The notes below the pieces were generated by a model. That model was given only the letters and a program-made list of their open reading frames with translations, searched no databases and was not told the origin of the DNA. Positions 5,858-17,244 of a stretch of 64,000 nt of DNA are shown one piece after another. Within the stretch, counting starts at the first letter, position 1. Each line of letters starts with the position of its first letter. A program made the translations under genes and the position numbers. Source of the DNA: Escherichia phage ECOP18; sequence record NC_105825.1. One strand, written 5' to 3'.

Positions 5858-5904
5858 AGCTGCTCCTAAAGTTAGCTATCTCTAGCTCTTTTAATGGTAG
5901 TTAG

Positions 5905-5980
5905 TAGTGGATTTGAACCACTGTAGTCGCTCCGTATGAAGGAGGTGCATAACCACTCTGCCAACTAACTAGTTAATTCT
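5905..5980 (-). tRNA. tRNA-Met (anticodon CAT)
   Basis: Hand fold: CCA encoded, 7-bp acceptor, T-arm, anticodon loop TTCATAC. Confidence 0.7.
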
Positions 5981-6137
5981 TTATAGGTTAGATCTAGAAG
6001 ATCTTTCTTACTGATAAGTCCTTCTCTATATTGGTCAATAAACATATCTATTCTAGAGTTCTCTGAGACTTCTATATCAGAAAGTTCAGCAAATATTTTT
6101 GCAAGTTTATCAATATCTTCCATACATAACCTTAATT

Positions 6138-6214
6138 TGGTACTCCGGGAGGGATTTAAACCCCCGATCTCTCGGTTATCAGCCGAGTGCTTTAGATCGC
6201 TAAGCTACCGAAGC
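6138..6214 (-). tRNA. tRNA-Ile (GAT)
   Basis: Anticodon arm CTCGG/CCGAG with loop CTGATAA. Confidence 0.7.
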
Positions 6215-6215
6215 A

Positions 6216-6422
6216 TTAACATTTTACAGCAGAACGTTTGCCATTTCTAGGTGCACCTGGAAGTCGTGCACGTTCTGCCATTCTTCTCTTAATCTTTGAG
6301 ATATTTTCTAGTGTTTGTTCCTCCGGCTTAATACCTGAAACACTACACCACTGATTACCATCCCATGCGGTAATGATCATAACACCATTACTCATGATCT
6401 TTTCTGTAAAAGTAATCCTCAT
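6216..6422 (-). CDS. hypothetical protein
   Basis: Start trimmed to ATG overlapping upstream stop (TAATG). Confidence 0.4.
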   Translation of the reverse strand: MRITFTEKIMSNGVMIITAWDGNQWCSVSGIKPEEQTLENISKIKRRMAERARLPGAPRNGKRSAVKC

Positions 6423-6715
6423 TATAGCAACTCGTCTAAGCAAGAGGTATATTTAAGTTTACCATCTTTATCTACTTTGATTTCGACTTCCGCTCGTGGT
6501 ACTTGATGAACTACACCATGAATCATCTTATAGCGAATGCCTTTAGCTGGTTCATGCTCTTTTGGAAATACTTGCTTAACCGTTACTACCTTAAAACCCT
6601 CACGCGGTGTTAACACTACTACTTGATCACCTTCTTTGATCTTCCAAGAGCCAGGAAATTCATAGGTATAGCGTTGACCACCAGTTTGGAACACAACAGA
6701 AAGATAACGTTTCAT
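6422..6715 (-). CDS. hypothetical protein
   Basis: 97-aa ORF behind consensus early promoter. Confidence 0.5.
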   Translation of the reverse strand: MKRYLSVVFQTGGQRYTYEFPGSWKIKEGDQVVVLTPREGFKVVTVKQVFPKEHEPAKGIRYKMIHGVVHQVPRAEVEIKVDKDGKLKYTSCLDELL

Positions 6716-6745
6716 TTGGCTTCCCTCTCATTAATTTATATAAAT

Positions 6746-6774
6746 ATTATAACAATAAATAAGAGAGAAAGCAA
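6746..6774 (-). promoter_or_regulatory. sigma70-type early promoter (TTGCTT-N17-TATAAT)
   Basis: Same architecture upstream of gene 6422-6715. Confidence 0.6.
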
Positions 6775-6782
6775 ATGAATTT

Positions 6783-6950
6783 TTAATAAAGTTTAGTCAC
6801 TTCATAAACTATACTACGAGATTCTTTATTACGTTCTATTAAATTAGAATATGCTTTTTCAGCTTCATTTTTAGTATTAAAGTCTATAACGTGGGAGGTA
6901 TTCGCTCTATTTGATTGACTATACCAGATAACTACTAATAATTTAAACAT
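6783..6950 (-). CDS. hypothetical protein
   Basis: ORF trimmed to internal Met so it does not overlap tRNA at 6965. Confidence 0.35.
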   Translation of the reverse strand: MFKLLVVIWYSQSNRANTSHVIDFNTKNEAEKAYSNLIERNKESRSIVYEVTKLY

Positions 6951-6964
6951 AATAGTCCTTAAGT

Positions 6965-7051
6965 TGGTGCTGGGCACAGGATTCGAACCTGTAACGGGAT
7001 TACTCCTCCTGATTACAAATCAGGTGCATTCAACCATTCTGCCGACCCAGC
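6965..7051 (-). tRNA. long-variable-arm tRNA, anticodon reads TGT
   Basis: Perfect T-arm and anticodon stem CCTGA/TCAGG; 15-nt variable region; 87 nt. Confidence 0.5.
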
Positions 7052-7216
7052 AGAACCCGTTATTTCAACGGGATTTCTTTTTCAATAATAGGAGACTTAT
7101 CAGTCATAACCGCCATTGCCATTTGTTGTAGAAATTCAAAGGTGAAGGCTACACGTTCTTCACCAATCTCTACTTCTACACGTTTCTTTTGTTTATCGAT
7201 CTTGACTTTTAGGTTA

Positions 7217-7468
7217 TCAGCCATTAGAGAGTACAGTACTGGTAGTTGGCAATACTACAGATGAAGCAACAGTGTTTAAATGCTTTCTCCAGTCTAGGTT
7301 AAATTGTTTTCGAAACTCTTCATAAGGTTCTTCTGGATAAAAGCTAAAACCTCCTTTCTCATCATTCAGGATAACAGAGCCGTCAGTTTGTTCGTATGCT
7401 CGGTATGTTTCTCCAATAACAATAACTCGTTTTTCGGTACTTTTATTACGAAACTCAAAAACGTGCAT
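7217..7468 (-). CDS. hypothetical protein
   Basis: 83-aa ORF between tRNA genes. Confidence 0.45.
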   Translation of the reverse strand: MHVFEFRNKSTEKRVIVIGETYRAYEQTDGSVILNDEKGGFSFYPEEPYEEFRKQFNLDWRKHLNTVASSVVLPTTSTVLSNG

Positions 7469-7484
7469 AATGTTTCCTTAAAGT

Positions 7485-7560
7485 TGGAGCGGCTAGAGGG
7501 AATCGAACCCTACTCAGCGAGGCTTGGAAGGCCTGCGGCACAACCCGTGTGCTTAACCGC
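7485..7560 (-). tRNA. tRNA-Gly (TCC)
   Basis: Anticodon loop CTTCCAA. Confidence 0.65.
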
Positions 7561-7568
7561 TTATTGTT

Positions 7569-7644
7569 TGGCTGGAGAAGGAGGAATCGAACCTACCATT
7601 AACGGAGTCAAAGGCCGTTGTGCTAACCGTTACACTACTCTCCA
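7569..7644 (-). tRNA. tRNA-Gln (TTG)
   Basis: Anticodon loop CTTTGAC. Confidence 0.6.
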
Positions 7645-7650
7645 ATTATT

Positions 7651-7726
7651 TGGCTGGGATGCCACGGATCGAACGTGGAACCTTCGGAGTCAGAGGCCGA
7701 CGATCTGCCAATTGATCTACATCCCA
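7651..7726 (-). tRNA. tRNA-Gln (CTG)
   Basis: Perfect T-stem and acceptor stem; anticodon loop CTCTGAC. Confidence 0.65.
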
Positions 7727-7738
7727 ATAATTTTTATT

Positions 7739-7933
7739 CTACGGAAAAATTGTTGTTGGCTCAGATTCTTCCAAACGTTTGCCTTCATGATCAACACGAA
7801 TAACGCCGCATCCTTCGCAAATCACAACTGCACCATAACCTTCTTTGACCTCAGCTTCTGTAATCAAACCAGAAAGATCACCAGTATCTTTACCCCACAT
7901 ATCAATGGAGCATTGTTTGCAGAAATCAGCCAT
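7739..7933 (-). CDS. hypothetical zinc-ribbon-like protein
   Basis: CxxC ... CxxC spacing (CKQC, CEGC). Confidence 0.45.
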   Translation of the reverse strand: MADFCKQCSIDMWGKDTGDLSGLITEAEVKEGYGAVVICEGCGVIRVDHEGKRLEESEPTTIFP

Positions 7934-7958
7934 ATTTTATTTCCTATTTAAGTTAATT

Positions 7959-8035
7959 TGGGGTGGCTAGTGAAATTCGAATCCACATAGGCCTGATTCA
8001 CAATCAGGATCATTAACCAATTATGATATAGCCAC
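7959..8035 (-). tRNA. tRNA-His (GTG)
   Basis: Perfect acceptor and anticodon stems; loop TTGTGAA. Confidence 0.75.
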
Positions 8036-8401
8036 AATTGAAAACTCGCAGGGTTAGCGAAACCTTCCTCAATTAGCATGTTCTAGAATACTAATCAAGT
8101 TATCTCCTATTGCACGCAGCTCAAGACGAGTACGAATTTTCAATTGTGGCGGCTCTCAGAAACTCTTCTACTCTAGTCTTAGCAGCTTACTCCCGAACGC
8201 ATGTCGGGGAAGTCTTACTAAGCGCATCAAATAGCACCGTTACACTTTGAGCCATTGGTGTATTAAGAAGCAGAAGGACTTGAACCTTCACGAGATAGAC
8301 CATTTATCTCAGCCGCTTTATGAGGTATGTTGCAGGGAGTGGATGTTCCCTATAAACCTTTTAGGCAGCCCCGTCTACCGATTCCGGCATACTTCAGGAT
8401 T

Positions 8402-8496
8402 TGGAGGTAGGTAAGGGGATCGAACCCTTACACCGTATCACTACGATCAACCGATTTCAAGTCGGAGTCCAGCGCCAGCCATTGGATTGACCTACC
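8402..8496 (-). tRNA. tRNA-Ser (TGA)
   Basis: Type II, 95 nt; anticodon loop CTTGAAA. Confidence 0.7.
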
Positions 8497-8508
8497 ATAT
8501 AAATTGTT

Positions 8509-8599
8509 TGGCGGAAGAGGAGAGATTTGAACTCTCAAGCCGTTTTACCAGTCAGCCACTTTCCAAGCGGTTTTCGTCACCAATTCGATTTGCTCTTCC
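8509..8599 (-). tRNA. long-variable-arm tRNA, anticodon unresolved (possibly Ser GGA)
   Basis: Perfect acceptor stem and T-arm; D-loop AATTGGTGA; anticodon arm non-canonical by hand. Confidence 0.5.
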
Positions 8600-8711
8600 A
8601 ATAACAAGATGATGCCTCTATCACACCAGGCAGTTACGCCTCGCTGGGATTCGAACCCATTAAAACAGCTCAACCGAGATAGTAGGTTTAATTTACTCTG
8701 ACCATCAAATT

Positions 8712-8788
8712 TGGTGCGTGACAAGGGATTCGAACCCTCAAAACCCGACTTCTAAGGACGGTATGTATGCCAATTCCATCAATCACGC
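8712..8788 (-). tRNA. tRNA, anticodon reads TAG
   Basis: Acceptor and T-arm present; anticodon loop CTTAGAA; short variable arm. Confidence 0.5.
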
Positions 8789-8793
8789 GTATT

Positions 8794-8872
8794 TGGTGGA
8801 GAATAACGGAATCGAACCGTTCTGATGTCCTCGGTGCAAGCGAGGTGTCCACTCCATGCAGACCCATTCCCC
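8794..8872 (-). tRNA. tRNA-Ala (TGC)
   Basis: G3-U70 pair; perfect anticodon stem CCTCG/CGAGG, loop CTTGCAC. Confidence 0.7.
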
Positions 8873-9110
8873 AAATTATTTAGTTTACTAAGGCTATTAG
8901 CTCGGCGTAACTACAGCACCTTCGCTTCGAGCGGAAGGAACCGCGTCATCTCGCAAACCCGATACACTATTCAGTTGCCACTGAATCTAGTGGACTAATC
9001 TAGAACTTCTCCCGAATCGTAGGGATCGTGCTTTTTGGCAGCCAGTCCTAGGTCGAACTAATACCTTAGTGAACTATGATGAGGATTTCTCCTCATCAAT
9101 TTATATAAAT

Positions 9111-9139
9111 ATTATAACAAGAAATTAAGCATTAAGCAA
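9111..9139 (-). promoter_or_regulatory. sigma70-type early promoter reading into the tRNA cluster
   Basis: TTGCTT-N17-TATAAT; no ORF immediately downstream. Confidence 0.55.
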
Positions 9140-9157
9140 CTGCGTTTTTCTTGAAAT

Positions 9158-9236
9158 TGGTAGATCGCCTGGGACTCGAACCCAGAACCTTCCGATTAAA
9201 AGTCGGATGCTACTAAACCTATTGAGCTAGCGATCT
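9158..9236 (-). tRNA. tRNA-Lys (TTT)
   Basis: Perfect acceptor, T and anticodon stems; loop CTTTTAA. Confidence 0.75.
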
Positions 9237-9237
9237 A

Positions 9238-9405
9238 TTAGTAACCATTATACACTTCTTTAATAGAGTGGACTTTTAAGTAAGGGTGATTAGTACTAAA
9301 CTCTACCATTACTTCATCCCAATTTTTACCATAATGAGCGAGTAAGGATTTTGATGTATTCTTACCTAACCGTTTGTCACTTACTACTAATCGAAATACT
9401 TTCAT
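9238..9405 (-). CDS. hypothetical small protein (55 aa)
   Basis: Hand-translated ORF below the ORF-track cutoff, with GAGGA RBS upstream of ATG. Confidence 0.35.
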   Translation of the reverse strand: MKVFRLVVSDKRLGKNTSKSLLAHYGKNWDEVMVEFSTNHPYLKVHSIKEVYNGY

Positions 9406-9425
9406 TTCGAAATCCTCTATTAAAA

Positions 9426-9503
9426 TGGAAGCGGGTGCAGGAATCGAACCTACCTCTTTCTAGCTTATGAGACTAGCGATCTCTACCAGAGATCTAACCC
9501 GCA
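9426..9503 (-). tRNA. tRNA-Met/Ile2 (CAT)
   Basis: Anticodon loop CTCATAA. Confidence 0.6.
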
Positions 9504-9509
9504 ATTGTT

Positions 9510-9585
9510 TGGTCAGTGCGGCAGGACTCGAACCTGCGACCCGAAGCATCCAAGGCTCCCACGCTACCAACTGCGCTACGCACTG
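9510..9585 (-). tRNA. tRNA-Pro (TGG)
   Basis: Perfect acceptor and T stems; loop CTTGGAT. Confidence 0.75.
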
Positions 9586-9594
9586 TTAATTCTT

Positions 9595-9792
9595 TTATTG
9601 TGGAGGAATATTAATAATTCGTCCGTCTACACAATAAACGGTACTAGGAATTGTACTATATATGTAGAAATTCTTTATATTACTCTCTCCGCCACAGAAA
9701 TTTTTAGCAAATTCATACTCTTTATTAATGGTTGAGTCAAGTTTAAAACAACCAGTAAGTAGGAATACAGACAGCAGTAAAACTTTTTTCAT
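9595..9792 (-). CDS. small lipoprotein
   Basis: Signal peptide with lipobox LLTGC; consensus promoter upstream. Confidence 0.5.
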   Translation of the reverse strand: MKKVLLLSVFLLTGCFKLDSTINKEYEFAKNFCGGESNIKNFYIYSTIPSTVYCVDGRIINIPPQ

Positions 9793-9824
9793 TTTGCTTT
9801 CCTTCTCAACACTTTATAAGGTAT

Positions 9825-9853
9825 ATTATACAGAGAATTAAGCATAATAGCAA
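9825..9853 (-). promoter_or_regulatory. sigma70-type early promoter
   Basis: TTGCTA-N17-TATAAT upstream of lipoprotein gene. Confidence 0.6.
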
Positions 9854-10002
9854 ATGAATTTTTAATAAATTTACTTATTGTGTAGGCCACCTGGAGGCTA
9901 CCAACCCCACGGCTGACAAAGAAGTTTGCGAGACCTCTCTTAAGTGCCAGAATAGACCCGCCGATCTATCGGAACCTACATAATAAGTAAACTTTATAGT
10001 GT

Positions 10003-10123
10003 CATTCTAGACAGGACTCGAACCTGTTATCACTTGTGCGGACTTACGAGAACCATTCTTTCACTCGAATCGAACGAGCTTCTGCCCTCGCCAAGCTGGT
10101 TTCCCCATCAACCACGCTAGAAT
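10003..10123 (-). ncRNA. aberrant tRNA-like element (121 nt)
   Basis: Perfect 7-bp end pairing (ATTCTAG/CTAGAAT) and canonical T-arm, but no 7-nt anticodon loop and an extra internal hairpin. Confidence 0.3.
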
Positions 10124-10287
10124 GTTTGATTGTTTTCAGTGCAAGAGTCCGAGTCTTGGACACGACCGCTTCGCAAGTACATAGGCAGCTTATCATGAGT
10201 CAGCACTTCCGAATTGCTAGCTCCGTGTTCTGCACTGAAATTTTATTAGTTTAACCGTAAAGTATTATCTACTTCACCATTAATTGT

Positions 10288-10593
10288 TCAGCATTCTTCT
10301 GGGATTGCTGGTGTAGCCTTATATTCCCACCATTCAGAACCGTCGTATTCACCACGTTCTAACCAAGTTCCATCAGTAAACCACACGTTACCATAAAGCA
10401 ATTGCCCACCGAAACCAGAATCATATTTAAAGTCTAGATTATTTAGAAAATCTTCAATATCTTTTTCTGTATAACCTACGGGTAACACCCAAACTTCTTT
10501 GTCCCCATAATAACCGAATTCTATCTTAATACACTTAACTTCAGAATTAATATTCTTTAAGGCAAGTAACAATTCTTCTTTAGCATTAATCAT
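10288..10593 (-). CDS. hypothetical protein
   Basis: 101-aa ORF. Confidence 0.5.
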   Translation of the reverse strand: MINAKEELLLALKNINSEVKCIKIEFGYYGDKEVWVLPVGYTEKDIEDFLNNLDFKYDSGFGGQLLYGNVWFTDGTWLERGEYDGSEWWEYKATPAIPEEC

Positions 10594-10619
10594 AGCATAT
10601 TTCTCGTACTAGTTTAATT

Positions 10620-10696
10620 TGGCGCGACCGATGGGATTTGAACCCACATTCTCTCCCGTGACAGGGGAGTACCATTACCAAGCCAGCCCCGGTCGC
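10620..10696 (-). tRNA. tRNA-Asp (GTC)
   Basis: Perfect acceptor and anticodon stems; loop CTGTCAC. Confidence 0.75.
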
Positions 10697-10705
10697 ATAA
10701 TTCAT

Positions 10706-10891
10706 TTACTCAGCTTTGAGTTTTTCAATAGCTGCATTAAGTTCTTTAAGAAACTTTTTTCGTACATTAAGACGGTTGAGACTTACTAGTATATCATGTT
10801 TAAGTTCTTCGATGTATTTCTTCTCAACTTCAATATTGTTGATAGTGCTATCACGATGAACTTCTAGCTGTGCAATTACATTCTTGGACAT
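10706..10891 (-). CDS. hypothetical protein
   Basis: 61-aa ORF. Confidence 0.4.
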   Translation of the reverse strand: MSKNVIAQLEVHRDSTINNIEVEKKYIEELKHDILVSLNRLNVRKKFLKELNAAIEKLKAE

Positions 10892-10993
10892 GCTTGTTTC
10901 CTCAGTTATTAATGAAAATGGTATCTGTGACTGAATTCGATGTCAGCAATGATAGCTGGTTGGCTACCGGTTTACTTAACTCTACACAGAATT

Positions 10994-11076
10994 TGGCGGG
11001 CCGTGTAGGATTCGAACCTACGTTGTCTTTCGACATGGATTAACAGTCCACCGCCAAACCGCTTGGCTAACGACCC
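10994..11076 (-). tRNA. tRNA-Asn (GTT)
   Basis: Anticodon loop CTGTTAA; 13-nt variable region. Confidence 0.6.
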
Positions 11077-11228
11077 TAAATTTATATTGCTGACTAGGAT
11101 TTTCACCTAGACGGAGTTAGCACCGTAGCGTGTAGCGGCATACCTCTCCAAACCGTGCCTCATCTTTCAATTACGGAGACAGTGTTCCTACGCGTGCCTG
11201 AATTGATTTAACAACTCTTTCAGCAAAT

Positions 11229-11304
11229 TGGACGACCGCATGAGATTTGAACTCACATAAAAAGGATTTGCAATCCTTCGCCTAAGCCATTCAGCCAACG
11301 GTCG
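11229..11304 (-). tRNA. tRNA-Cys (GCA)
   Basis: Perfect anticodon stem AAGGA/TCCTT; loop TTGCAAA. Confidence 0.75.
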
Positions 11305-11373
11305 ATTTATCTTGTTCTGTCATGTTGCTTCTCCAGTTCAATTTATGTAATTATTATACAGAACTTTTGGAAA

Positions 11374-11661: not shown

Positions 11662-11663
11662 TT

Positions 11664-11737
11664 TGGTGCACCCTGTTCGTATCGAACGAACCTCTCAAGC
11701 TCTTCAGGCAAGCGCTAATCCATCTCAGCTAAAGGTG
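11664..11737 (-). tRNA. tRNA, anticodon unresolved (possibly Phe GAA)
   Basis: CCA, acceptor pairing and T-arm present; anticodon stem imperfect. Confidence 0.4.
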
Positions 11738-11744
11738 CAAATTT

Positions 11745-11821
11745 TGGCAAACCTACTAGGACTTGAACCTAGACCGTACGGTTTTGGAGACCGACATGCT
11801 GTCCAGTAACACTCTAGGAAT
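11745..11821 (-). tRNA. tRNA-like gene, anticodon unresolved
   Basis: CCA and perfect T-arm (CTAGG/CCTAG); acceptor has two mismatches. Confidence 0.3.
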
Positions 11822-11828
11822 GCAGGAT

Positions 11829-11905
11829 TGGCGTCCTGTGCGGGGATCGAACCCACAAATCCTACCTTGAAAGGGTAGTGACTTTACCAGTTTGTCTAAC
11901 AGGAC
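11829..11905 (-). tRNA. tRNA-Glu (TTC)
   Basis: Perfect acceptor and anticodon stems; loop CTTTCAA. Confidence 0.75.
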
Positions 11906-11911
11906 TTAAAT

Positions 11912-12003
11912 TTGGTGTTGGATGATGGAGTCGAACCACCCGAGACCCTTCCGAGTCGGCAGATTTACAGTCTGCTTCGCTACCTCTACGATACTAATCC
12001 AAC
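11912..12003 (-). tRNA. tRNA-Tyr (GTA)
   Basis: Type II, 92 nt; perfect anticodon stem GCAGA/TCTGC, loop CTGTAAA. Confidence 0.75.
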
Positions 12004-12131
12004 ATATTTAAAAGTATTCAAATACTAGTTTAAACACTTTTAGATATGTTTCCAAATTAGATAACTATTATATCAAGTTTTATGGCACTGAGCAAGTCAA
12101 ATTTTAAAGAACTTGCTCAGTGCTGTATTAG

Positions 12132-12407
12132 TTAGTCGAACTTAGGAGCGACAGTTAAGGAGAATGGAAGTTCGAAAACTTCTTCGCCCTCATCACTAAC
12201 AGTAATTACACGACCTTTAAGTTCAGACATTGAAATATCAATATCAGCTTTTGCATCTGGAGCCATGCCAGCTTCAATACATTTAGCTTTAACTTCCGGC
12301 AGAAGTTCTACATCGTAGAAATAAAGCCATTCAATCTCACCTTCCCAGCCTTCCCAGGATTTACAGATTGCACTTTCAATACCAGTTGCTATAACACGAT
12401 TTTGCAT
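12132..12407 (-). CDS. hypothetical protein
   Basis: 91-aa ORF; long hairpin downstream. Confidence 0.5.
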   Translation of the reverse strand: MQNRVIATGIESAICKSWEGWEGEIEWLYFYDVELLPEVKAKCIEAGMAPDAKADIDISMSELKGRVITVSDEGEEVFELPFSLTVAPKFD

Positions 12408-12497
12408 TCGTTAACTCCTTCATCAATTTATATAACTATTATACCAGAAATTTAAAGCAAAAGGCAAGTACATTTTTAAAAATTCTGTTTGGAGGAG

Positions 12498-12704
12498 CTA
12501 AACTCCAGATTCTTCAGCTAAGTCTAGGCTAATAAGAGATATAGCCATAATTGCTGCTCCGTGTTCTCTTTCTCCTGTCTCTTTAGCTAGGGTTATAATA
12601 TCAAGAAATTGCTTATGAAAGTCTGCAACCTCTTGAGTCATACCTGCCTCAGCAATCATGCCTTTAAGCATGAAACGTTGTGCGGTAATTTCGGGATTAG
12701 CCAT
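12498..12704 (-). CDS. hypothetical protein
   Basis: 68-aa ORF. Confidence 0.45.
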   Translation of the reverse strand: MANPEITAQRFMLKGMIAEAGMTQEVADFHKQFLDIITLAKETGEREHGAAIMAISLISLDLAEESGV

Positions 12705-12864
12705 GTTGTTTCTCCAGTTTCATGTTTAATAGTCTACAAATAAAATCAATGTCTTCATCTGTGCCTAGATCTCTATCTTCAAGAGTTGCCTTGAAGTTTT
12801 TCGTCAATTCCATGAGGATAACTTCTATAGAACGACGTGTTGGCGGAGGTGGATGTCTATACAT
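12697..12864 (-). CDS. hypothetical small protein (55 aa)
   Basis: Hand-translated ORF with AAGGAAA RBS; stop overlaps start of next gene. Confidence 0.35.
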   Translation of the reverse strand: MYRHPPPPTRRSIEVILMELTKNFKATLEDRDLGTDEDIDFICRLLNMKLEKQHG

Positions 12865-12879
12865 CTTATTTCCTTAAGT

Positions 12880-12956
12880 TGGTAGGGGTGGTGGGATTCG
12901 AACCCACAAAACCTGAATTTTAAGTCCAGTACCTATGCCAATTCGATTACACCCCC
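12880..12956 (-). tRNA. tRNA, anticodon reads TAA (Leu-decoding) with short variable arm
   Basis: Perfect T-arm; anticodon loop CTTAAAA. Confidence 0.55.
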
Positions 12957-13057
12957 ATGTAATCAGTTTATTAGTTGATACATATTATAGCCTAGTGAAA
13001 ATCCTACTACTAGTCCCACAAACCAACCAATATAATAATCTTTTAGTTTCACAGGTA

Positions 13058-13243
13058 TTATCCTCGTTCAATATCTAGGGAAACACCGCAGTTAGGATTA
13101 ATACCTGTACCGTTGCAATTTGAACAAATCCAGATATTGCAAAAAGTATCTCCTGCTTCTGCATCAGAACTTTCACCAATTCCCCTACACTCAGGGCAGG
13201 CACATTCTTCTAGCTCTTGCTTGAGTTCTTGAAACTTGGACAT
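13058..13243 (-). CDS. DnaJ-type zinc-finger mini-protein
   Basis: Two CxxCxGxG repeats (CPECRGIG, CSNCNGTG). Confidence 0.5.
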   Translation of the reverse strand: MSKFQELKQELEECACPECRGIGESSDAEAGDTFCNIWICSNCNGTGINPNCGVSLDIERG

Positions 13244-13252
13244 ATAGTCTCC

Positions 13253-13441
13253 TTAGTCAATTACTTTTGAGGCTTCAAGGGAGTCGATATAGTATACGTT
13301 TTCTACCATAATCATATAATCTGCCACTTTATCCATAGCTTGGGCCTCAGAGGTAGCTCTGGCTAACCTATATCCTTTTTTATATTCATCCGGGTATTCT
13401 CTATCTTGAATAAATACAACATAAACTATGTATAATTCCAC
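13253..13441 (-). CDS. hypothetical protein
   Basis: Track ORF 13253-13588 runs through two tRNA genes; trimmed to in-frame GTG with AGGGGA RBS. Confidence 0.35.
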   Translation of the reverse strand: MELYIVYVVFIQDREYPDEYKKGYRLARATSEAQAMDKVADYMIMVENVYYIDSLEASKVID

Positions 13442-13461
13442 TTGTAATCCCCTAATTAAGT

Positions 13462-13539
13462 TGGTGGCTCCCCGAGGATTCGAACCTACGTACCTTCCGG
13501 TTATGAGCCGGGTGCTCATACCATATGAGCTTGAGAACC
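13462..13539 (-). tRNA. tRNA-Met/Ile2 (CAT)
   Basis: Anticodon arm CCGG/CCGG with loop CTCATAA. Confidence 0.55.
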
Positions 13540-13545
13540 AGAATT

Positions 13546-13634
13546 TGGCGGAAGAAGTGGGAATCGAACCCACAAGGCTATATTTCAAACCGACAGATTA
13601 GCAATCTGCTGCAATACCGTTATGCTATTCTTCC
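13546..13634 (-). tRNA. tRNA-Ser (GCT)
   Basis: Type II, 89 nt; perfect acceptor and T stems; loop TTGCTAA. Confidence 0.75.
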
Positions 13635-13655
13635 GAATTTATAAGATATATTATA

Positions 13656-14174
13656 TTAGAAATTTAGCTTCATAGCAAGAAAATTTTTCAAGTTTTCGGT
13701 AGACATCTCATCCACATCTACGGGAGAAACAAAGCCGTTTAATTTTCTAGCAAATTTTTCACCCGCAGGATCGTTGTCTCCGACAGCTACCAATTTAAAA
13801 GGTAATAATTTCAGTTGCTTTAATAACGCTTTTCCTGGAGAAGAACCTAACATTGCCAGGGCTGGATAACCAGCGTTATGTAGCGCAACTGCCTTAAATA
13901 CAGATTCAGCGATCAATACTACTTTTTCATCTCCATTGAGAGTTTCTAGTCCCCATACACACTGGGTAGTAGAATAAGTAAAATATTTAGCTTCAAAGGG
14001 ACACTTACTATGACCTTTTGGAGCAGAAGGATTATACGTCTGATAGCCTCGCAACATCCCGGAGAAGTCATACAACGGGACTGTTAGCCATCCTTCCGGA
14101 CTTAACCAGCAATGATATTTATCTGTATCAAATCCTCTGGATAAGAGGTGCTGTGTTAGCTCATCAACATTCAT
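13656..14174 (-). CDS. Toprim-domain protein
   Basis: Conserved Glu (VVLIAES) and DxD (VAVGDNDPAG); start set to MNVDELT downstream of the promoter. Confidence 0.5.
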   Translation of the reverse strand: MNVDELTQHLLSRGFDTDKYHCWLSPEGWLTVPLYDFSGMLRGYQTYNPSAPKGHSKCPFEAKYFTYSTTQCVWGLETLNGDEKVVLIAESVFKAVALHNAGYPALAMLGSSPGKALLKQLKLLPFKLVAVGDNDPAGEKFARKLNGFVSPVDVDEMSTENLKNFLAMKLNF

Positions 14175-14349
14175 ATTTGGTTCCTCTCTCAAATTTATAG
14201 ATATATTATACAGAGAATTTAGCATTCAAGCAATCAAATTTTTTAACTTTTTAGAGGAAAATCATAGGGCACTTAAGGGTAGCAGATAAGTGGGGAGGAC
14301 CAAAATTTGTGACCCCACTAAAAATCCGGGGGCAATTTTTAAAGACCCC

Positions 14350-14378
14350 TTGACATTTTCGCTGGGGTAGTGTAAAGT
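14350..14378 (+). promoter_or_regulatory. sigma70-like promoter for rightward cassette
   Basis: Consensus -35 TTGACA, 17-nt spacer, TG then TAAAGT. Confidence 0.5.
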
Positions 14379-14440
14379 ATATGTTATGGATGAGTGATCA
14401 AAGAGACACACATTTTCTATATACTAGGAGGTGTCAAAAT

Positions 14441-15430
14441 ATGACAGAAGAAGTAGCTAAGAGTCCTGAGACCGTCGCTAGCGTTGCAGCAGAACTGCAC
14501 CGTCACGAGGAATCAGATAAGAAAAAGTGGGAGAAGGTCAGAGTCTACGAAGAAAAACATCGTGAACACGATGATGAAGAAGAAGATGACGATGATGAAC
14601 ATTGTCATAAATATGGAAAACATAAAATGCAAGAACCAGTAAACGTATTCACTAGTGGCTTCCCTGGCCTACTGGGTGGTTACCCAGCAAACGCAGGTGC
14701 TTTCGGTGGTGAAGGTATGGGACTATTCGGAGCTATCCTAATCGGTGCTCTATTAACCGGCGGATTCGGTGGTTTCGGTGGATTCGGTGGACGTGGTGTA
14801 GTTGGTGAAGGTACCGCAGTTGATGCAGTACTTCAGAACCAAGATACCGCTAGTATTCTAGCAGCTATCAACACTACTCGTACAGAGGCTAACCAGGGTA
14901 CTGGAGCTGTTTTAAGCGCAGTTAACAATGGTTTTAGCCAGACAACCCAAAACCAGAGCCGTGATACTCAGTCTGTACTAACTACGATCTACGGTACAGG
15001 TGCTAATCTGTCTAATCAGATCTGCCAGGAAACTCGCAACGTTATTCAGGGTCAGTTCGATCTTTCTCGCCAGATTGATCAATCTTTCGCAGCTAACCAG
15101 ATAGCTCGTGCACAAGATAAGTTTGATTCTGCACAGATCGCTTTCCAGCAGACTTTACAAACTAATAACCAGTTTGCCGCTGTTCAGGCTCAGATGTGTG
15201 CTAACCAGAACTCTCTGGAACGTCAGATCGCTGAATGTTGCTGTGAACTTCAGACTGCGATCGCTGGTGTAACTACTGCGCGTATCCAGGATGAGTTAGA
15301 CGCATGTCGCCTACGTGAAGCAATCGCTGCGGGTAGCGGTGCTAACGGTCAGGTAATTAATCAAATCGCTTTAAGTCTTGGTGCTATCACTCAGACTCTG
15401 GCTGGTCTGCAGGCTAAACTGCCGGCTTAA
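14441..15430 (+). CDS. low-complexity protein (acidic/His-rich N-terminus, Gly-rich hydrophobic segment, Q/N/A/T-rich C-terminal region)
   Basis: AGGAGGTG RBS before ATG at 14441; GGFGGFGGFGG segment; host-like codon usage; own promoter. Confidence 0.6.
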   Translation: MTEEVAKSPETVASVAAELHRHEESDKKKWEKVRVYEEKHREHDDEEEDDDDEHCHKYGKHKMQEPVNVFTSGFPGLLGGYPANAGAFGGEGMGLFGAILIGALLTGGFGGFGGFGGRGVVGEGTAVDAVLQNQDTASILAAINTTRTEANQGTGAVLSAVNNGFSQTTQNQSRDTQSVLTTIYGTGANLSNQICQETRNVIQGQFDLSRQIDQSFAANQIARAQDKFDSAQIAFQQTLQTNNQFAAVQAQMCANQNSLERQIAECCCELQTAIAGVTTARIQDELDACRLREAIAAGSGANGQVINQIALSLGAITQTLAGLQAKLPA

Positions 15431-15451
15431 TATTAAGGGGAGGAGCCCCTT

Positions 15452-15868
15452 ATGAGTAAATATGGTTTTGTAAATAACGGACTTAATCAAAGTATGGGCT
15501 CCCAGCAGCCCATTCCGGGTCTGGATAACCCCTACTTACAACAGTTGCAACAGCGTTTAGCAGAAGCGCAACAGATGCAGCAACAACTCCAGCAAAACCC
15601 TGGAAGTGTGAGTCCTATGCAAATGATGCAGCAAATGAGCGGGCAGTCGCAAATGCCTCAACAAATGCAGCAACAGGTGCCTCAGCAGCAAGTTCAGCAA
15701 CAAACCCAACAACCGCAGGTTTCTGCGGAAGGACAGGCAGTACTAGCCCTTTTCGAAGACTTCGCAAAGACAGAGGATGGGAAACAGCTTGTATCACTTA
15801 TGGGTAAGTTTAATAGCTTCTGCCAAAGCCAAGTTGCAAAAGCTCAAAATGGGGGTAGTAACTCCTAA
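15452..15868 (+). CDS. Gln/Met-rich low-complexity protein
   Basis: GGGGAGG RBS; runs of QQ/MQQ. Confidence 0.55.
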   Translation: MSKYGFVNNGLNQSMGSQQPIPGLDNPYLQQLQQRLAEAQQMQQQLQQNPGSVSPMQMMQQMSGQSQMPQQMQQQVPQQQVQQQTQQPQVSAEGQAVLALFEDFAKTEDGKQLVSLMGKFNSFCQSQVAKAQNGGSNS

Positions 15869-15877
15869 GGAGGAAAT

Positions 15878-16072
15878 ATGTGTTGCAGAAAATCTGTTTC
15901 GTGCTGCCCAGTGCCTGTAGCACGTTGTTGCTCTCCAGCAATGTTTACGCAAATACCGGCGTTCAATCCCTTTGCCTTTAAACCTACTCTTATCCTGCCC
16001 CCTAGAGTAGATTTTCAGTCAAGATTGGCCTCCCGTATGGGTGGTTGCTGTACACCGAGAGTATGGTTCTAA
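15878..16072 (+). CDS. Cys-doublet small protein
   Basis: AAGGAGG RBS; CC doublets; followed by terminator. Confidence 0.5.
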   Translation: MCCRKSVSCCPVPVARCCSPAMFTQIPAFNPFAFKPTLILPPRVDFQSRLASRMGGCCTPRVWF

Positions 16073-16082
16073 ACCAAAAACA

Positions 16083-16118
16083 AAAGCCCCTGCCGAAAGG
16101 TAAGGGGCTTTTTCTTTT
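16083..16118 (+). terminator. rho-independent terminator ending rightward cassette
   Basis: Hairpin AGCCCC/GGGGCT then TTTTTCTTTTG. Confidence 0.65.
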
Positions 16119-16124
16119 GCCTTA

Positions 16125-16165
16125 AATACAGAAAAGCCCGCGCTCTCGTAGGAAACGCGGGCTTG
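16125..16165 (-). terminator. rho-independent terminator after SPFH gene
   Basis: Hairpin AGCCCGCG/CGCGGGCT then T-run on minus strand. Confidence 0.6.
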
Positions 16166-16187
16166 GTTCGAAGATTACGTGTAACTA

Positions 16188-17135
16188 TTACTTGTTACGC
16201 ATATCCATGATCATTTGACCATCGTAGCCAGTACCTACCACAGTCTGAGGTACACCACCTTGATACTTCTGAGCACGGATCATTTCAACTTCCAGTTGTT
16301 TCCAACGAATCATTTCAGGAGTAATGGTACGTTGCAATGCGGCGTTAGCTTCAGCTTCTTTCTTAGCTGCGTACAGTTTAGCATCTGCGTCACGTTCATT
16401 AGCAATAGCTTGGTTGTTACGAGCTTCACGATCTGCTTCTGCTTGTTTAACTTTTTGCTGTGCTTCCTGTTCAACGCGAGCAAGTTCAGCTTTCGCAGCA
16501 TTAACTTGCTCTTCACGAACTTTGGTATTCTGTACCTGTTCCATGATTACTGGCGGCAAGGTAATATCCTGAAGGAATACCTGCTTAACTGTGTAACCAT
16601 ATGGGCGCGCATACTCTTCAACTTCCTGTTGAATTGCAGTTTGCAATTGAGCCTGAATTTTAGCATCAAATAAATCTTGTGCTTTAGGTACAGACTTACC
16701 AAACTCACGAATAGTAGACAGTAATTTTTCAGTTACATACTTGTCTAGTGCCTGATCCTGAGTACCTGCGTTAATACGGTTAATCGGTGCTTTAGAACCA
16801 TCAAACTGCAACATAACAGTCAGGTCAACAGTGGATTTAAACTTATCCTGGCTAGGAACCTGAAGTTTATCTAATTTTACAGCAATATCTTTTGTACTAA
16901 AAGTATCGAAAGATGCAAACGGGTTTACAAGATGGAAGCCCGGCAATACTGGATTAGGGTCTACTTTACCCAGGAATGTTTGGGTTTTAACCGTACCATC
17001 AGAAACAATAGTATATGAATTAAAAGCTAGGATTAAACCTGCTAAACCAACTACAGCACCAATACCCCAACGTTTAATAGTACGAATTACTTTCTGCTCA
17101 GAAGTCAGTTCTTTCATATTTTTAGTAGCAAACAT
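16188..17135 (-). CDS. SPFH/band-7 (stomatin/prohibitin/HflC-like) membrane protein
   Basis: N-terminal TM, SPFH-like core, Ala/Gln/Glu-rich coiled-coil C-terminus. Confidence 0.55.
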   Translation of the reverse strand: MFATKNMKELTSEQKVIRTIKRWGIGAVVGLAGLILAFNSYTIVSDGTVKTQTFLGKVDPNPVLPGFHLVNPFASFDTFSTKDIAVKLDKLQVPSQDKFKSTVDLTVMLQFDGSKAPINRINAGTQDQALDKYVTEKLLSTIREFGKSVPKAQDLFDAKIQAQLQTAIQQEVEEYARPYGYTVKQVFLQDITLPPVIMEQVQNTKVREEQVNAAKAELARVEQEAQQKVKQAEADREARNNQAIANERDADAKLYAAKKEAEANAALQRTITPEMIRWKQLEVEMIRAQKYQGGVPQTVVGTGYDGQMIMDMRNK

Positions 17136-17169
17136 ATATTTCCTTTGTTTTAGTTACAGTTAATAAAAT

Positions 17170-17244
17170 TGGCCGAGGTGACAGGATTCGAACCTGCATA
17201 AAGGAATTTAGAAGACTCCTGCCTCTCCCTTAGACTACACCCCG
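17170..17244 (-). tRNA. tRNA-Arg (TCT)
   Basis: Anticodon loop CTTCTAA. Confidence 0.65.

What the first reader, a model, noticed from the sequence alone, without database searches (positions are those of the whole stretch)
5905..17244. Large tRNA island with unusual members
About 25 leftward tRNA genes fold by hand, most with encoded CCA after a recurring ATTTGG context. Oddities: three CAT-anticodon tRNAs; a short-variable-arm tRNA with anticodon TAA (12880-12956) although bacterial Leu tRNAs are type II; a long-variable-arm tRNA whose anticodon reads TGT (6965-7051); several with non-U at position 8 by my fold.
Basis: partly seen in the sequence, partly recalled or inferred. Interest (0 to 1): 0.5.

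Follow-up and report, generated by a model that had tools for sequence, protein, structure and literature searches.

The report
Phage T5-type tRNA island, class-switched tRNAs
This is the well-known transfer-RNA gene cluster of a T5-like coliphage, but several members break the textbook shape rule (leucine tRNAs without the long extra arm, threonine and asparagine tRNAs with one), and these turn out to belong to large, conserved viral tRNA families that probably help phages survive bacterial enzymes that cut tRNAs.

Summary
The minus strand of 5895-17244 carries 25 tRNA genes, all with encoded CCA, and a CCA-less tRNA-like remnant lies at 17747-17818. The window is a T5-like coliphage (99.8% to T5_ev212), so the island itself is already known.

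- **Three CAU tRNAs:** ordinary. They are elongator Met, initiator and Ile2.
- **Architectural oddities:** real, and broader than reported. Both Leu tRNAs (UAA and UAG) are short-arm. Thr(UGU) and also Asn(GUU) carry a 3-bp, GNRA-capped extra hairpin.
- **Not hand-fold errors or private quirks:** I found 71 distinct long-arm Thr(UGU) sequences in viral contigs, with covarying arms and invariant G1-C72/C2-G71. I also found 34 short-arm viral Leu tRNAs, all with A73 and A15:U48.
- **Decoding is standard:** codons read by these tRNAs align with Thr, Leu and Asn in distant NrdA homologues.

Most likely these are cognate tRNAs whose architecture was remodelled to escape tRNA-cutting defences; this step is inferred. 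PARIS cuts exactly Lys(UUU), Thr(UGU) and Asn(GUU) beside the variable region. The window's tRNA-Tyr is identical to SP15's, whose enlarged variable loop defeats Retron-Eco7. I found no prior description of these class switches.

The parts
5895..5970 (-). tRNA-Met(CAU), elongator
   Evidence: ARAGORN; Rfam 51.5 bits; identical to T5 tRNAM(CAU)
6138..6214 (-). tRNA-Ile(GAU)
   Evidence: ARAGORN; Rfam 64.7 bits
6965..7051 (-). tRNA-Thr(UGU), 87 nt, class II-like with extra arm; private U8->C at 7044
   Evidence: ARAGORN; Rfam 54.1 bits with insertion in the variable region; MFE fold; about 100 T5-like genomes carry it with U8
6993..7007 (-). Extra (variable) arm of Thr(UGU): A[GGA]GUAA[UCC]CGUU, 3 bp plus GNRA tetraloop
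   Evidence: covarying equivalents in 71 viral sequences
7485..7560 (-). tRNA-Gly(UCC), non-canonical (single nucleotide between acceptor and D stems)
   Evidence: Missed by ARAGORN; Rfam sub-threshold; annotated (the T5 copy works as an amber suppressor after anticodon change); cloverleaf MFE
7569..7644 (-). tRNA-Gln(UUG)
7651..7726 (-). tRNA-Gln(CUG)
7959..8035 (-). tRNA-His(GUG)
8402..8496 (-). tRNA-Ser(UGA), C8, U73
   Evidence: Annotated; Rfam tRNA-Sec model 37.6 bits, below threshold; cloverleaf MFE
8509..8599 (-). tRNA-Ser(GGA), C8
   Evidence: Annotated; T5 counterpart tRNAS2(GGA); no Rfam or ARAGORN call; only a partial cloverleaf in MFE
8712..8788 (-). tRNA-Leu(UAG), 77 nt, class I (5-nt variable loop)
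   Evidence: ARAGORN; Rfam 47.5 bits; T5 has an 85-nt class II allele in this slot; >=99% identical in 129 phage records
8794..8872 (-). tRNA-Ala(UGC) with G3:U70, G8
9158..9236 (-). tRNA-Lys(UUU), 79 nt, enlarged D loop; anticodon-stem 3' side UAAUC|G
   Evidence: Rfam 60.9 bits
9426..9503 (-). tRNA-fMet(CAU), initiator by T5 annotation; U1xU72 mismatch
   Evidence: identical to T5 tRNAfM
9510..9585 (-). tRNA-Pro(UGG)
10620..10696 (-). tRNA-Asp(GUC)
10994..11076 (-). tRNA-Asn(GUU), 83 nt, class II-like; extra arm [GUC]GAAA[GAC]AAC at 11022-11034
   Evidence: ARAGORN; Rfam 59 bits; MFE fold; >=99% identical in 206 records; compensatory variant [AUCC]GCAA[GGAU] in Bas33
11229..11304 (-). tRNA-Cys(GCA)
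11664..11738 (-). tRNA-Phe(GAA)
11745..11821 (-). tRNA-Trp(CCA)
11829..11905 (-). tRNA-Glu(UUC)
11913..12003 (-). tRNA-Tyr(GUA), 91 nt, enlarged variable arm; identical to the anti-Retron-Eco7 tRNA-Tyr of phage SP15
   Evidence: exact match in the SP15 locus; function shown in PMC12673091
12880..12956 (-). tRNA-Leu(UAA), 77 nt, class I
   Evidence: ARAGORN; Rfam 57.4 bits; >=99% identical in 291 phage records; T5 has the homing endonuclease hegA in this slot
13462..13539 (-). tRNA-Ile2(CAU)
   Evidence: Rfam 40.3 bits; near-identical to T5 tRNAI2(CAU); cloverleaf MFE
13546..13634 (-). tRNA-Ser(GCU)
17170..17244 (-). tRNA-Arg(UCU)
17747..17818 (-). tRNA-like remnant, no CCA, degenerate anticodon arm (inside T5 'RNAX')
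   Evidence: Rfam 35.5 bits; 'tRNA-OTHER'; fold; T5 RNAX annotation

Best explanation
Shown: this is the tRNA gene cluster of a T5-like (Tequintavirus) coliphage. It holds 25 leftward tRNA genes with encoded CCA, interspersed with small early ORFs. They cover 19 amino acids plus the initiator (no Val).

Shown: the three CAU tRNAs are elongator Met, initiator and Ile2.

Shown by comparison: the architectural oddities are real alleles of widespread viral tRNA families. Both Leu tRNAs have lost the long variable arm. Thr(UGU) and Asn(GUU) have gained a short GNRA-capped hairpin in the variable region.

Inferred from identity elements and a codon-meaning test: they keep their cognate identity and decode normally. 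The host's LeuRS, ThrRS and AsnRS charge them with Leu, Thr and Asn. E. coli LeuRS does not need the arm, and ThrRS and AsnRS read the acceptor end and the anticodon.

Inferred, about 45% likely: the arm remodelling is an escape from tRNA-targeting defence nucleases. PARIS AriB cuts Lys(UUU), Thr(UGU) and Asn(GUU) at 40|41, directly beside the point where the extra arm emerges. The window's Thr and Asn keep the host-like cleavage-site sequence, so any protection would have to come from the arm or the D loop. A variable-loop-dependent escape is already proven for the tRNA-Tyr encoded in this same island.
For: Source.
- The island is 99.8% identical to T5_ev212 and EC148 and syntenic with the T5 reference tRNA region.

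tRNA calls.
- The Met, fMet and Ile2 genes are identical or near-identical to experimentally characterised T5 genes.

Long-arm Thr(UGU) family.
- About 100 T5-like genomes carry it, as do Aeromonas phage PX29 and a cyanophage.
- 71 unique sequences come from IMG/VR viral contigs.
- The core helices are 98.5% paired, and 0 of 500 shuffles reach the observed covariation.
- The extra arm forms a hairpin beyond chance: mean stem 3.11 bp vs 2.62 +/- 0.08 in shuffles, 46 distinct stems, 31 of 71 with GNRA or UUCG caps.
- G1-C72 and C2-G71 are invariant in 68/68, as in ordinary viral Thr(UGU) (67/71). Only 25% of other tRNAs with the same T loop have C2-G71. The discriminator is U or A, never G.
- About 1 in 5 unselected viral Thr(UGU) tRNAs are long-armed (12/62), while Thr(CGU) and Thr(GGU) never are (0/11 and 0/10).

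Long-arm Asn.
- G73 in 10 of 11.
- It co-occurs with long Thr: 10/46 vs 0/15, Fisher p = 0.045.

Class I Leu.
- 34 unique viral sequences have A73 34/34, A15 34/34, U48 34/34, A14 33/34 and GG 34/34.
- These are exactly the E. coli LeuRS determinants. That enzyme needs neither the anticodon nor the arm (PMC9976931).

Codon meaning (NrdA against 29 non-redundant homologues).
- ACA aligns with Thr in 43% of cells vs 38% for ACU/ACC.
- UUA and CUA each align with Leu in 58% vs 52% for CUU/CUC.
- AAY aligns with Asn in 45% vs 44% for the Asp control.

Defence link.
- AriB targets, cut site and motif come from PMC12409363.
- The window's Thr has UAAUC|A and its Asn UAAUC|C, the same as E. coli, whereas the T5 alleles are mutated at position 39 (G in place of U) in both, and also at 40-41 in Asn.
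- Bas33 (HildyBeyeler) carries the same long-arm Thr and a long-arm Asn but no Lys(UUU). T5 tRNA-Lys alone rescues it from PARIS.
- The window's tRNA-Tyr is identical to SP15's tRNA-Tyr, whose enlarged variable loop is required to defeat Retron-Eco7, which cuts E. coli tRNA-Tyr in the variable loop.
Against: - There are no aminoacylation, expression or cleavage data for these alleles. Identity and nuclease resistance are inferred.
- The published AriB model names contacts in the anticodon stem-loop and D loop, not the variable region.
- Long-arm Thr(UGU) also sits in bacterial chromosomes, notably Eremiobacterota. It is therefore not purely a phage counter-defence trait.
- I know of no defence nuclease that targets the tRNA-Leu arm, so the rationale for class I Leu is weakest.
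- The Thr-Asn co-occurrence is only marginally significant, and the loci were not sampled independently of phylogeny.
- Codon compensation also explains part of the set: AGA is 6.2x, CUA 4.0x and AUA 2.3x more frequent than in an E. coli sample.
- This window's Thr copy has a private U8->C change that might impair it.
Confidence: 0.75

Rival explanations
1. Neutral tolerance. The arm gains and losses have no specific function. They persist because LeuRS ignores the arm and ThrRS and AsnRS tolerate an insertion, and the alleles spread by hitch-hiking in a recombination-prone tRNA cassette region.
For: E. coli LeuRS does not need the arm. T5-like phages swap whole tRNA alleles at syntenic slots (vs 11). 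Low-frequency extra arms occur on many isoacceptors in viral loci.
Against: The extra arm keeps a constant architecture across very divergent phages: 1 nt, then a 3-4 bp stem with a stable tetraloop, then 3-4 nt, with compensatory changes. It is specific to Thr(UGU) and absent from Thr(CGU) and Thr(GGU). It recurs on Asn(GUU) in the same genomes. The isoacceptors affected are the PARIS targets. A variable-loop function is proven for the neighbouring tRNA-Tyr.
Confidence: 0.3
2. The extra arm is a handle for another partner. Candidates are a phage or host modification enzyme, a processing step, or a phage factor that distinguishes phage tRNAs from host tRNAs. It would not be a shield against nucleases.
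For: Long-arm Thr(UGU) is also chromosomal in Eremiobacterota, where a housekeeping role is plausible. A PHROG family annotated 'tRNA amidotransferase' flanks the island at 18079-18513.
Against: No candidate partner was identified. Arm sequences are highly variable apart from the hairpin shape, which argues against sequence-specific recognition. The same arm type occurs in unrelated phage families with different gene sets.
Confidence: 0.15
3. Recoding or deliberate mis-decoding. The long-arm UGU tRNA would be a Ser-, Leu- or Tyr-type body with a Thr anticodon (like nematode nev-tRNAs or allo-tRNAs), or the short 'Leu' tRNAs would carry another amino acid.
For: The D arm of the long-arm Thr (GGCAGAAUGGUUGAAUGC) resembles a class II, Ser-type D arm. 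The T5-like copies have A73, the Leu/Tyr discriminator.
Against: G1-C72 and C2-G71 are invariant, the discriminator is mostly U73 and never G73, and the acceptor signature matches ordinary Thr(UGU). The arm stem is only 3-4 bp. ACA, UUA, CUA and AAY codons align with Thr, Leu and Asn in distant NrdA homologues as well as control codons do. CUA plus UUA make up about 45% of the phage's Leu codons, so mis-charging would be ruinous. The short Leu tRNAs keep all LeuRS determinants.
Confidence: 0.03
4. Artefact or pseudogenes. The odd folds would be hand-fold or software errors, or decaying tRNA genes.
For: Several island members are non-canonical enough to be missed by ARAGORN or flagged as pseudogenes by annotators. 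One true remnant exists at 17747-17818.
Against: Two independent programs and unconstrained folding agree. The alleles are >=99% conserved in hundreds of genomes. They show family-wide covariation.
Confidence: 0.02

Closest known systems
tRNA gene region of bacteriophage T5 (NC_005859, 25 tRNA genes plus stable RNAs, characterised by amber-suppressor conversion)
   Same: Same genomic position, orientation, gene order and encoded CCA. Met, fMet, Asp, Cys, Ser(GCU) and Arg are identical, and several others nearly so.
   Different: Many slots hold different alleles. Thr is 87 nt here vs 75 nt in T5. Leu(UAG) is 77 vs 85 nt, Asn 83 vs 78 nt and Tyr 91 vs 88 nt. Lys, Pro, Ala, Trp and both Gln also differ. 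Leu(UAA) is present here where T5 has the homing endonuclease hegA. Val is absent here, as are the hegA, hegC and hegD endonuclease genes.
SP15 tRNA-Tyr, the phage tRNA that neutralises Retron-Eco7 through its enlarged variable loop (PMC12673091)
   Same: The window's tRNA-Tyr is 100% identical. It establishes that remodelling the variable arm of a T5-like phage tRNA can defeat a tRNA-cutting defence.
   Different: tRNA-Tyr is already a class II tRNA, so that case is a lengthening. For Thr and Asn an arm is created on class I isoacceptors, and for Leu it is deleted. No nuclease has been tested on those.
T5 tRNA-Lys(UUU), Thr(UGU) and Asn(GUU) variants that neutralise PARIS AriB (PMC11464382, PMC12409363)
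   Same: The same three isoacceptors are encoded here, and the same logic applies: a phage copy replaces a host tRNA that is cut at 40|41.
   Different: The T5 alleles escape through substitutions at positions 39-41 and 16. The window's Thr and Asn keep the host-like UAAUC|A and UAAUC|C and differ instead by the extra arm.
Nematode nev-tRNAs and bacterial allo-tRNAs (V-arm tRNAs with non-Leu/Ser anticodons; PMC3333845)
   Same: They are tRNAs with a long variable arm whose anticodon does not belong to Leu, Ser or Tyr.
   Different: Those carry Leu or Ser identity and mis-decode. Here the acceptor and discriminator identity is cognate (Thr, Asn) and codon meaning is standard.
Animal mitochondrial tRNA-Leu (class I) and minimalist E. 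coli tRNA-Leu constructs lacking the arm (PMC9976931)
   Same: These are Leu tRNAs without the long arm that are still recognised through A73 and core tertiary elements.
   Different: The tRNAs here are natural and full-sized, with canonical D and T arms. They are used in a bacterial cytoplasm and encoded by phages.

Membership tests
T5-type (Tequintavirus) tRNA gene cluster | Nucleotide identity and synteny with the tRNA region of T5-like genomes | tested here: met
   99.8% identity over 12.1 kb to T5_ev212 and EC148; 140 records cover >=80% of the query; gene order matches
T5-type (Tequintavirus) tRNA gene cluster | About 25 co-oriented tRNA genes with genomically encoded CCA, interspersed with small ORFs | tested here: met
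   25 genes, all with CCA; small ORFs match PHROGs of unknown function
tRNA (Rfam RF00005) | Score at or above the gathering threshold (29 bits) | tested here: met
   Met for 22 of the 25 genes plus the remnant. Gly(UCC), Ser(UGA) and Ser(GGA) do not reach it and rest on annotation, T5 experiments and folds.
Class II (long-variable-arm) tRNA | Variable region of 10 nt or more that forms a stem-loop | tested here: met
   Thr: 15 nt, 3 bp plus GUAA. Asn: 13 nt, 3 bp plus GAAA. Family-wide hairpin test.
Class II (long-variable-arm) tRNA | In bacteria the isotype is Leu, Ser or Tyr (or Sec) | tested here: not met
   The anticodons are UGU and GUU, with Thr- and Asn-type acceptor and discriminator. 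These have the class II shape but do not belong to the class II isotype set.
tRNA-Thr (ThrRS substrate) | Acceptor-stem pairs G1-C72 and C2-G71 plus anticodon G35 U36. The review states identity is acceptor pairs plus anticodon and that the discriminator is weak; the exact pairs are from my own knowledge of the E. coli set. | tested here: met
   Present in the window copy and invariant in 68/68 family members. Review text.
tRNA-Thr (ThrRS substrate) | Charged with threonine | not testable with these tools
   Indirect only: ACA keeps Thr meaning; Bas33, with this allele, needs only added tRNA-Lys to escape PARIS
tRNA-Asn (AsnRS substrate) | Anticodon GUU plus discriminator G73 | tested here: met
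   The window copy has GUU and G73; 10 of 11 long-arm Asn have G73; determinants
E. coli-type tRNA-Leu (LeuRS substrate) | A73, A14, A15:U48 Levitt pair, G18G19 and A20a in the D loop | tested here: met
   Both window Leu tRNAs have the D loop GAAUUGGCAUA, U48 and A73. A73, A15 and U48 are 34/34 in the viral class I Leu family. Determinants.
E. coli-type tRNA-Leu (LeuRS substrate) | Long variable arm (universal in bacterial tRNA-Leu, but not a LeuRS determinant) | tested here: not met
   5-nt variable loop GUUUU in both
Mis-decoding V-arm tRNAs (nev-tRNA / allo-tRNA type) | Leu or Ser identity elements combined with a non-cognate anticodon, changing codon meaning | tested here: not met
   No G73; Thr-type acceptor; codon-meaning test shows standard decoding
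Anti-defence phage tRNA (PARIS / Retron-Eco7 evasion) | The isoacceptor matches a host tRNA cut by a known defence nuclease | tested here: met
Anti-defence phage tRNA (PARIS / Retron-Eco7 evasion) | The phage copy resists the nuclease and restores infection | tested here: inconclusive
   Tyr: identical to the experimentally validated SP15 allele. Thr: indirect support through Bas33. Asn, Lys and Leu: no data. Bas34's non-protective 'Asn' is a broken chimera and so is uninformative.

The most novel reading that the evidence does not exclude
Switching a tRNA's structural class is a general phage counter-defence strategy. On this reading, phages add a small capped hairpin to Thr(UGU) and Asn(GUU) and delete the long arm from Leu. 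That makes the tRNA invisible or inaccessible to host nucleases that recognise tRNA shape or cut in or beside the variable region (AriB-like at 40|41, PtuAB-like inside the V loop). Synthetase identity stays intact. If so, the textbook rule 'class II = Leu, Ser, Tyr' is routinely broken in the virosphere, in roughly 20% of viral Thr(UGU) and 40% of viral Leu tRNAs in my samples. It would also predict an undiscovered defence nuclease that acts on the tRNA-Leu arm.
Probability: 0.4. Interest if true: 0.8.

Novelty: new variant of a known kind. Interest (0 to 1): 0.6.

Why it matters
Why phages carry tRNA genes has been debated for 50 years. Recent work shows that some T5 tRNAs are replacement parts that survive tRNA-cutting immune systems, through point changes at the cut site or, for tRNA-Tyr, through a longer variable loop.

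This island shows a third route, at the level of architecture. It involves exactly the isoacceptors that PARIS attacks and lies next to a tRNA-Tyr with a proven variable-loop mechanism. The same alleles recur across unrelated phage families.

The idea gives directly testable predictions: arm deletion and arm grafting against AriB cleavage, and a search for a nuclease that targets the tRNA-Leu arm.

It also documents a large natural exception to the class I / class II rule of tRNA structure. Natural, E. coli-compatible tRNA scaffolds with a dispensable or added arm could be useful for engineering orthogonal or tagged tRNAs.

Tried and rejected
- **Column-wise covariation of the extra arm.** This was not usable on the MAFFT alignment because arm lengths differ. 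I replaced it with a per-sequence hairpin test against shuffles and counted only the four standard helices column-wise.
- **'ATTTGG' as a special signal.** The hexamer is not enriched in the window as a whole. It is simply CCA followed by AAU at 11 of the 25 genes.
- **Codon compensation as the sole explanation.** Only AGA, CUA and AUA are clearly enriched, and the overall test is not significant (Mann-Whitney p = 0.16).
- **Recoding.** Tested on NrdA and rejected.
- **'Phage-only' origin of the long-arm Thr.** Rejected. A scan of bacterial genomes mostly hit ordinary tRNA-Tyr (72 hits) but found 18 true long-arm Thr(UGU), chiefly in Eremiobacterota chromosomes.
- **Bas34 as counter-evidence.** Its own Asn does not protect against PARIS, but that gene is a deletion chimera with a mismatched acceptor stem.
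- **Prior description.** Nine literature searches found no description of class II-type Thr/Asn or class I-type Leu tRNAs in phages. The 1980s-90s T5 tRNA papers in subscription journals and the figure supplements of the PARIS papers could not be searched.
- **Flanking ORFs.** Pfam and PHROGs scans gave no tRNA-specific partner.

Full report
**1. What is there**

ARAGORN finds 21 tRNA genes, all on the minus strand, between 5895 and 17244. Rfam's tRNA model finds 21 at its gathering score and more with relaxed filters. Rfam adds Ile2(CAU) at 13465-13539 and a CCA-less tRNA-like element at 17747-17818.

Three further genes are missed or sub-threshold: Gly(UCC) 7485-7560, Ser(UGA) 8402-8496 and Ser(GGA) 8509-8599. 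They are annotated in the closest genomes and in the T5 reference. Gly and Ser(UGA) fold as cloverleaves, while Ser(GGA) folds only partly.

The total is 25 genes, and all end in an encoded CCA. CCA is followed by AAU in 11 of the 25, which reads ATTTGG on the plus strand. The hexamer is not enriched in the window as a whole (55 observed vs 44.8 +/- 6.5 expected).

Eight genes lack U at position 8.

**2. Where it comes from**

The 12.1-kb region is 99.8% identical to Escherichia phage T5_ev212 and to EC148, and 140 T5-like records cover at least 80% of it. The window is therefore a Tequintavirus, and the island is the classical T5 tRNA region.

The T5 reference record lists 25 tRNA genes there, with notes from amber-suppressor experiments. 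The window's three CAU tRNAs are identical or nearly identical to T5 tRNAM, tRNAfM and tRNAI2. That is the normal elongator, initiator and Ile2 trio, so it is not an oddity.

The surrounding ORFs are typical T5 early-region content:
- a GrcA-like glycyl-radical protein at 5252-5620;
- a small Toprim-domain protein at 13656-14225;
- an SPFH lipoprotein at 16188-17135;
- a PHROG family annotated 'tRNA amidotransferase' at 18079-18513;
- many small PHROGs of unknown function.

**3. The real anomaly: tRNAs of the 'wrong' structural class**

Comparing the window with T5 slot by slot shows that many syntenic tRNA genes are different alleles.

| Slot | This window | T5 reference |
|---|---|---|
| Thr(UGU) | 87 nt, 15-nt variable arm A[GGA]GUAA[UCC]CGUU | 75 nt, class I |
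| Leu(UAG) | 77 nt, 5-nt variable loop | 85 nt, class II |
| Leu(UAA) | 77 nt, class I | absent; homing endonuclease hegA in the slot |
| Asn(GUU) | 83 nt, arm [GUC]GAAA[GAC]AAC | 78 nt |

ARAGORN, Rfam and unconstrained folding agree on these architectures.

**4. These are conserved families, not accidents**

*Within T5-like phages.*
- The long-arm Thr occurs in about 100 phage records at 92-99% identity.
- The short Leu(UAA) is >=99% identical in 291 records.
- The short Leu(UAG) is >=99% identical in 129 records.
- The long-arm Asn is >=99% identical in 206 records.

*Outside T5-like phages.*
- The T4-like Aeromonas phage PX29 has both an 85-nt Thr(UGU) and a long-arm Asn(GUU).
- A cyanophage has an 86-nt Thr(UGU).
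- N4-like Pseudomonas, Vibrio and cyanophage genomes have class I Leu tRNAs with A73.

*Long-arm Thr(UGU) in IMG/VR.* A pattern scan returned 120 loci with 71 distinct long-arm Thr(UGU) sequences of 81-92 nt.
- Their four standard helices are 98.5% paired, and 0 of 500 shuffles reach the observed covariation.
- The extra arm has a constant plan: 1 unpaired nt, a 3-4 bp stem, usually a GNRA or UUCG cap, then 3-4 nt.
- There are 46 different stems. Hairpin potential exceeds shuffles (mean 3.11 bp vs 2.62 +/- 0.08).
- In a scan that admitted both classes, 12 of 62 unique Thr(UGU) were long-armed.

*Other isoacceptors in those loci.*
- Thr(CGU) and Thr(GGU) were never long-armed (0/11 and 0/10).
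- Asn(GUU) was long-armed in 10 of 46.
- Long Asn appeared only in loci that also had a long Thr (10/46 vs 0/15, Fisher p = 0.045).
- Class I Leu made up 34 of 85 unique viral Leu tRNAs.

*Bacterial genomes.* The architecture is not restricted to phages. A scan of bacterial genomes found 18 long-arm Thr(UGU), mostly in Eremiobacterota chromosomes.

**5. Which amino acid do they carry?**

*Identity elements.*
- All long-arm Thr(UGU) have G1-C72 and C2-G71 (68/68). Ordinary viral Thr(UGU) have the same pairs in 67/71.
- Only 25% of other tRNAs with the same T loop have C2-G71.
- The discriminator is U or A and never G. This fits threonine identity, which rests on acceptor pairs plus the anticodon with a weak discriminator. 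It does not fit Ser identity.
- Long-arm Asn has G73 in 10 of 11, and AsnRS determinants are the anticodon plus G73.
- Class I Leu tRNAs have A73, A15 and U48 in 34/34, A14 in 33/34 and G18G19 in 34/34. That is the full E. coli LeuRS determinant set, and the enzyme needs neither the anticodon nor the long arm.

*Codon-meaning test.* I used the window's NrdA against 29 non-redundant homologues of 38-52% identity.

| Codons | Aligned with the expected residue | Control |
|---|---|---|
| ACA (Thr) | 43% | ACU/ACC 38% |
| UUA (Leu) | 58% | CUU/CUC 52% |
| CUA (Leu) | 58% | CUU/CUC 52% |
| AAY (Asn) | 45% | Asp codons 44% |

Decoding is therefore standard, and the recoding rival is rejected.

**6. 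What is the remodelling for? (inference)**

Codon compensation explains only part of the set. AGA, CUA and AUA are 6.2x, 4.0x and 2.3x more frequent than in an E. coli sample, but the overall trend is not significant (p = 0.16).

Two published defence systems point to another reading.
- **PARIS.** Its nuclease AriB cuts E. coli tRNA-Lys(UUU), Thr(UGU) and Asn(GUU) between positions 40 and 41, with a U36AAUC motif and a D-loop contact. T5's three alleles carry substitutions there and together neutralise PARIS.
- **Retron-Eco7.** It cuts E. coli tRNA-Tyr inside the variable loop. The tRNA-Tyr of T5-like phage SP15 defeats it only if its enlarged variable loop is intact.

Four observations connect these systems to this island.
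- The window's tRNA-Tyr is 100% identical to SP15's.
- The window's Thr and Asn keep the host-like UAAUC|A and UAAUC|C. The arm that distinguishes them emerges three or four nucleotides from the cut site.
- Bas33 (HildyBeyeler) carries the same long-arm Thr, a long-arm Asn with a compensatory arm variant, and no Lys(UUU). T5 tRNA-Lys alone rescues it from PARIS, whereas phage T7, which has no tRNAs, needs Lys plus Thr. This suggests that the long-arm Thr works in vivo and survives AriB.
- Bas34's non-protective 'Asn' is a chimera with a mismatched acceptor stem, so it is uninformative.

I therefore rate an anti-nuclease role as the most likely function, at about 45%. Neutral tolerance and recognition by some other partner are the main alternatives. 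For class I Leu no matching nuclease is known, so that part is a prediction.

**7. Novelty and verdict**

The island itself is already known. The three CAU tRNAs are ordinary.

The class switches are real, conserved and widespread, and databases annotate them without comment. Nine searches of the open literature found no description of them. A 2020 review of non-canonical tRNAs does not mention phages at all. The older T5 literature in subscription journals could not be searched.

I classify this as a new variant of a known kind, with moderate-to-high interest.

Noticed in passing
window 7044 (position 8 of tRNA-Thr 6965-7051): This window's long-arm Thr has C at position 8. Every other long-arm Thr copy I compared from T5-like genomes (T5_ev212, Bas33 and the T5-like IMG/VR loci) has the near-universal U8, and none of the ~100 database copies is 100% identical to the window's. 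The change could be a private mutation or a sequencing error that weakens the U8:A14 tertiary pair.
   Followed up: partly
L339 10598-10681 (phage SelmaRatti / Bas34): The annotated tRNA-Asn is a deletion chimera. The 5' part of the long-arm Asn is joined within the T arm to the 3' end of tRNA-fMet, which leaves three mismatches in the acceptor stem. This may explain why Bas34's own Asn did not protect it from PARIS in PMC12409363.
   Followed up: partly
L131, L134, L140, L142, L143, L154, L161, L164, L192 and others (bacterial genome contigs): Long-arm tRNA-Thr(UGU) with a conserved GCCGACG acceptor sits on megabase-scale contigs of Eremiobacterota. It also occurs in Acetobacteraceae and Spirosoma. 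It appears to be a native chromosomal tRNA in those lineages.
   Followed up: partly
L005 3586-3661 (Synechococcus phage BUCT-ZZ01): ARAGORN calls a 76-nt tRNA with a CUA anticodon, a potential amber suppressor. It lies in an unannotated tRNA cluster that also holds a long-arm Thr and two class I Leu tRNAs.
   Followed up: no
window 13656-14225 (-): A 189-aa protein with a Toprim-like domain (Pfam Toprim_2; PHROG 'DNA primase') is embedded in the tRNA island. Toprim is also the catalytic fold of the tRNA nuclease AriB. Its role here is unknown.
   Followed up: no
window 12957-13461 vs T5 reference 36379-37062: The island is a mosaic. T5 carries HNH homing endonucleases (hegA, hegC, hegD) that are absent here. 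In place of hegA this window has tRNA-Leu(UAA) plus two small ORFs, one matching the PHROG 'anti-termination protein Q-like'. Endonuclease-driven cassette exchange may move the tRNA alleles around.
   Followed up: partly
window 17747-17818 (-): A tRNA-like element without CCA and with a degenerate anticodon arm lies in the region that the T5 reference annotates as stable 'RNAX' of unknown function.
   Followed up: partly
window 26608-29043 (-) and homologues P0004, P0007, P0022: The phage NrdA has close homologues of 1080-1150 aa. P0004 and P0022 carry an extra intein-type domain (PF14528); P0007 has no such Pfam hit recorded. The window's copy is intein-free.
   Followed up: no
L006 2094-2175 and 2491-2572 (Pseudomonas phage ZC03): Two 82-nt tRNA-like genes with irregular anticodon loops are annotated as Pro and Arg. 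ARAGORN gives an undetermined anticodon for one of them.
   Followed up: no
window ~30000: GC skew changes sign near 30 kb (negative before, positive after). This coincides with the change from leftward to rightward genes.
   Followed up: no
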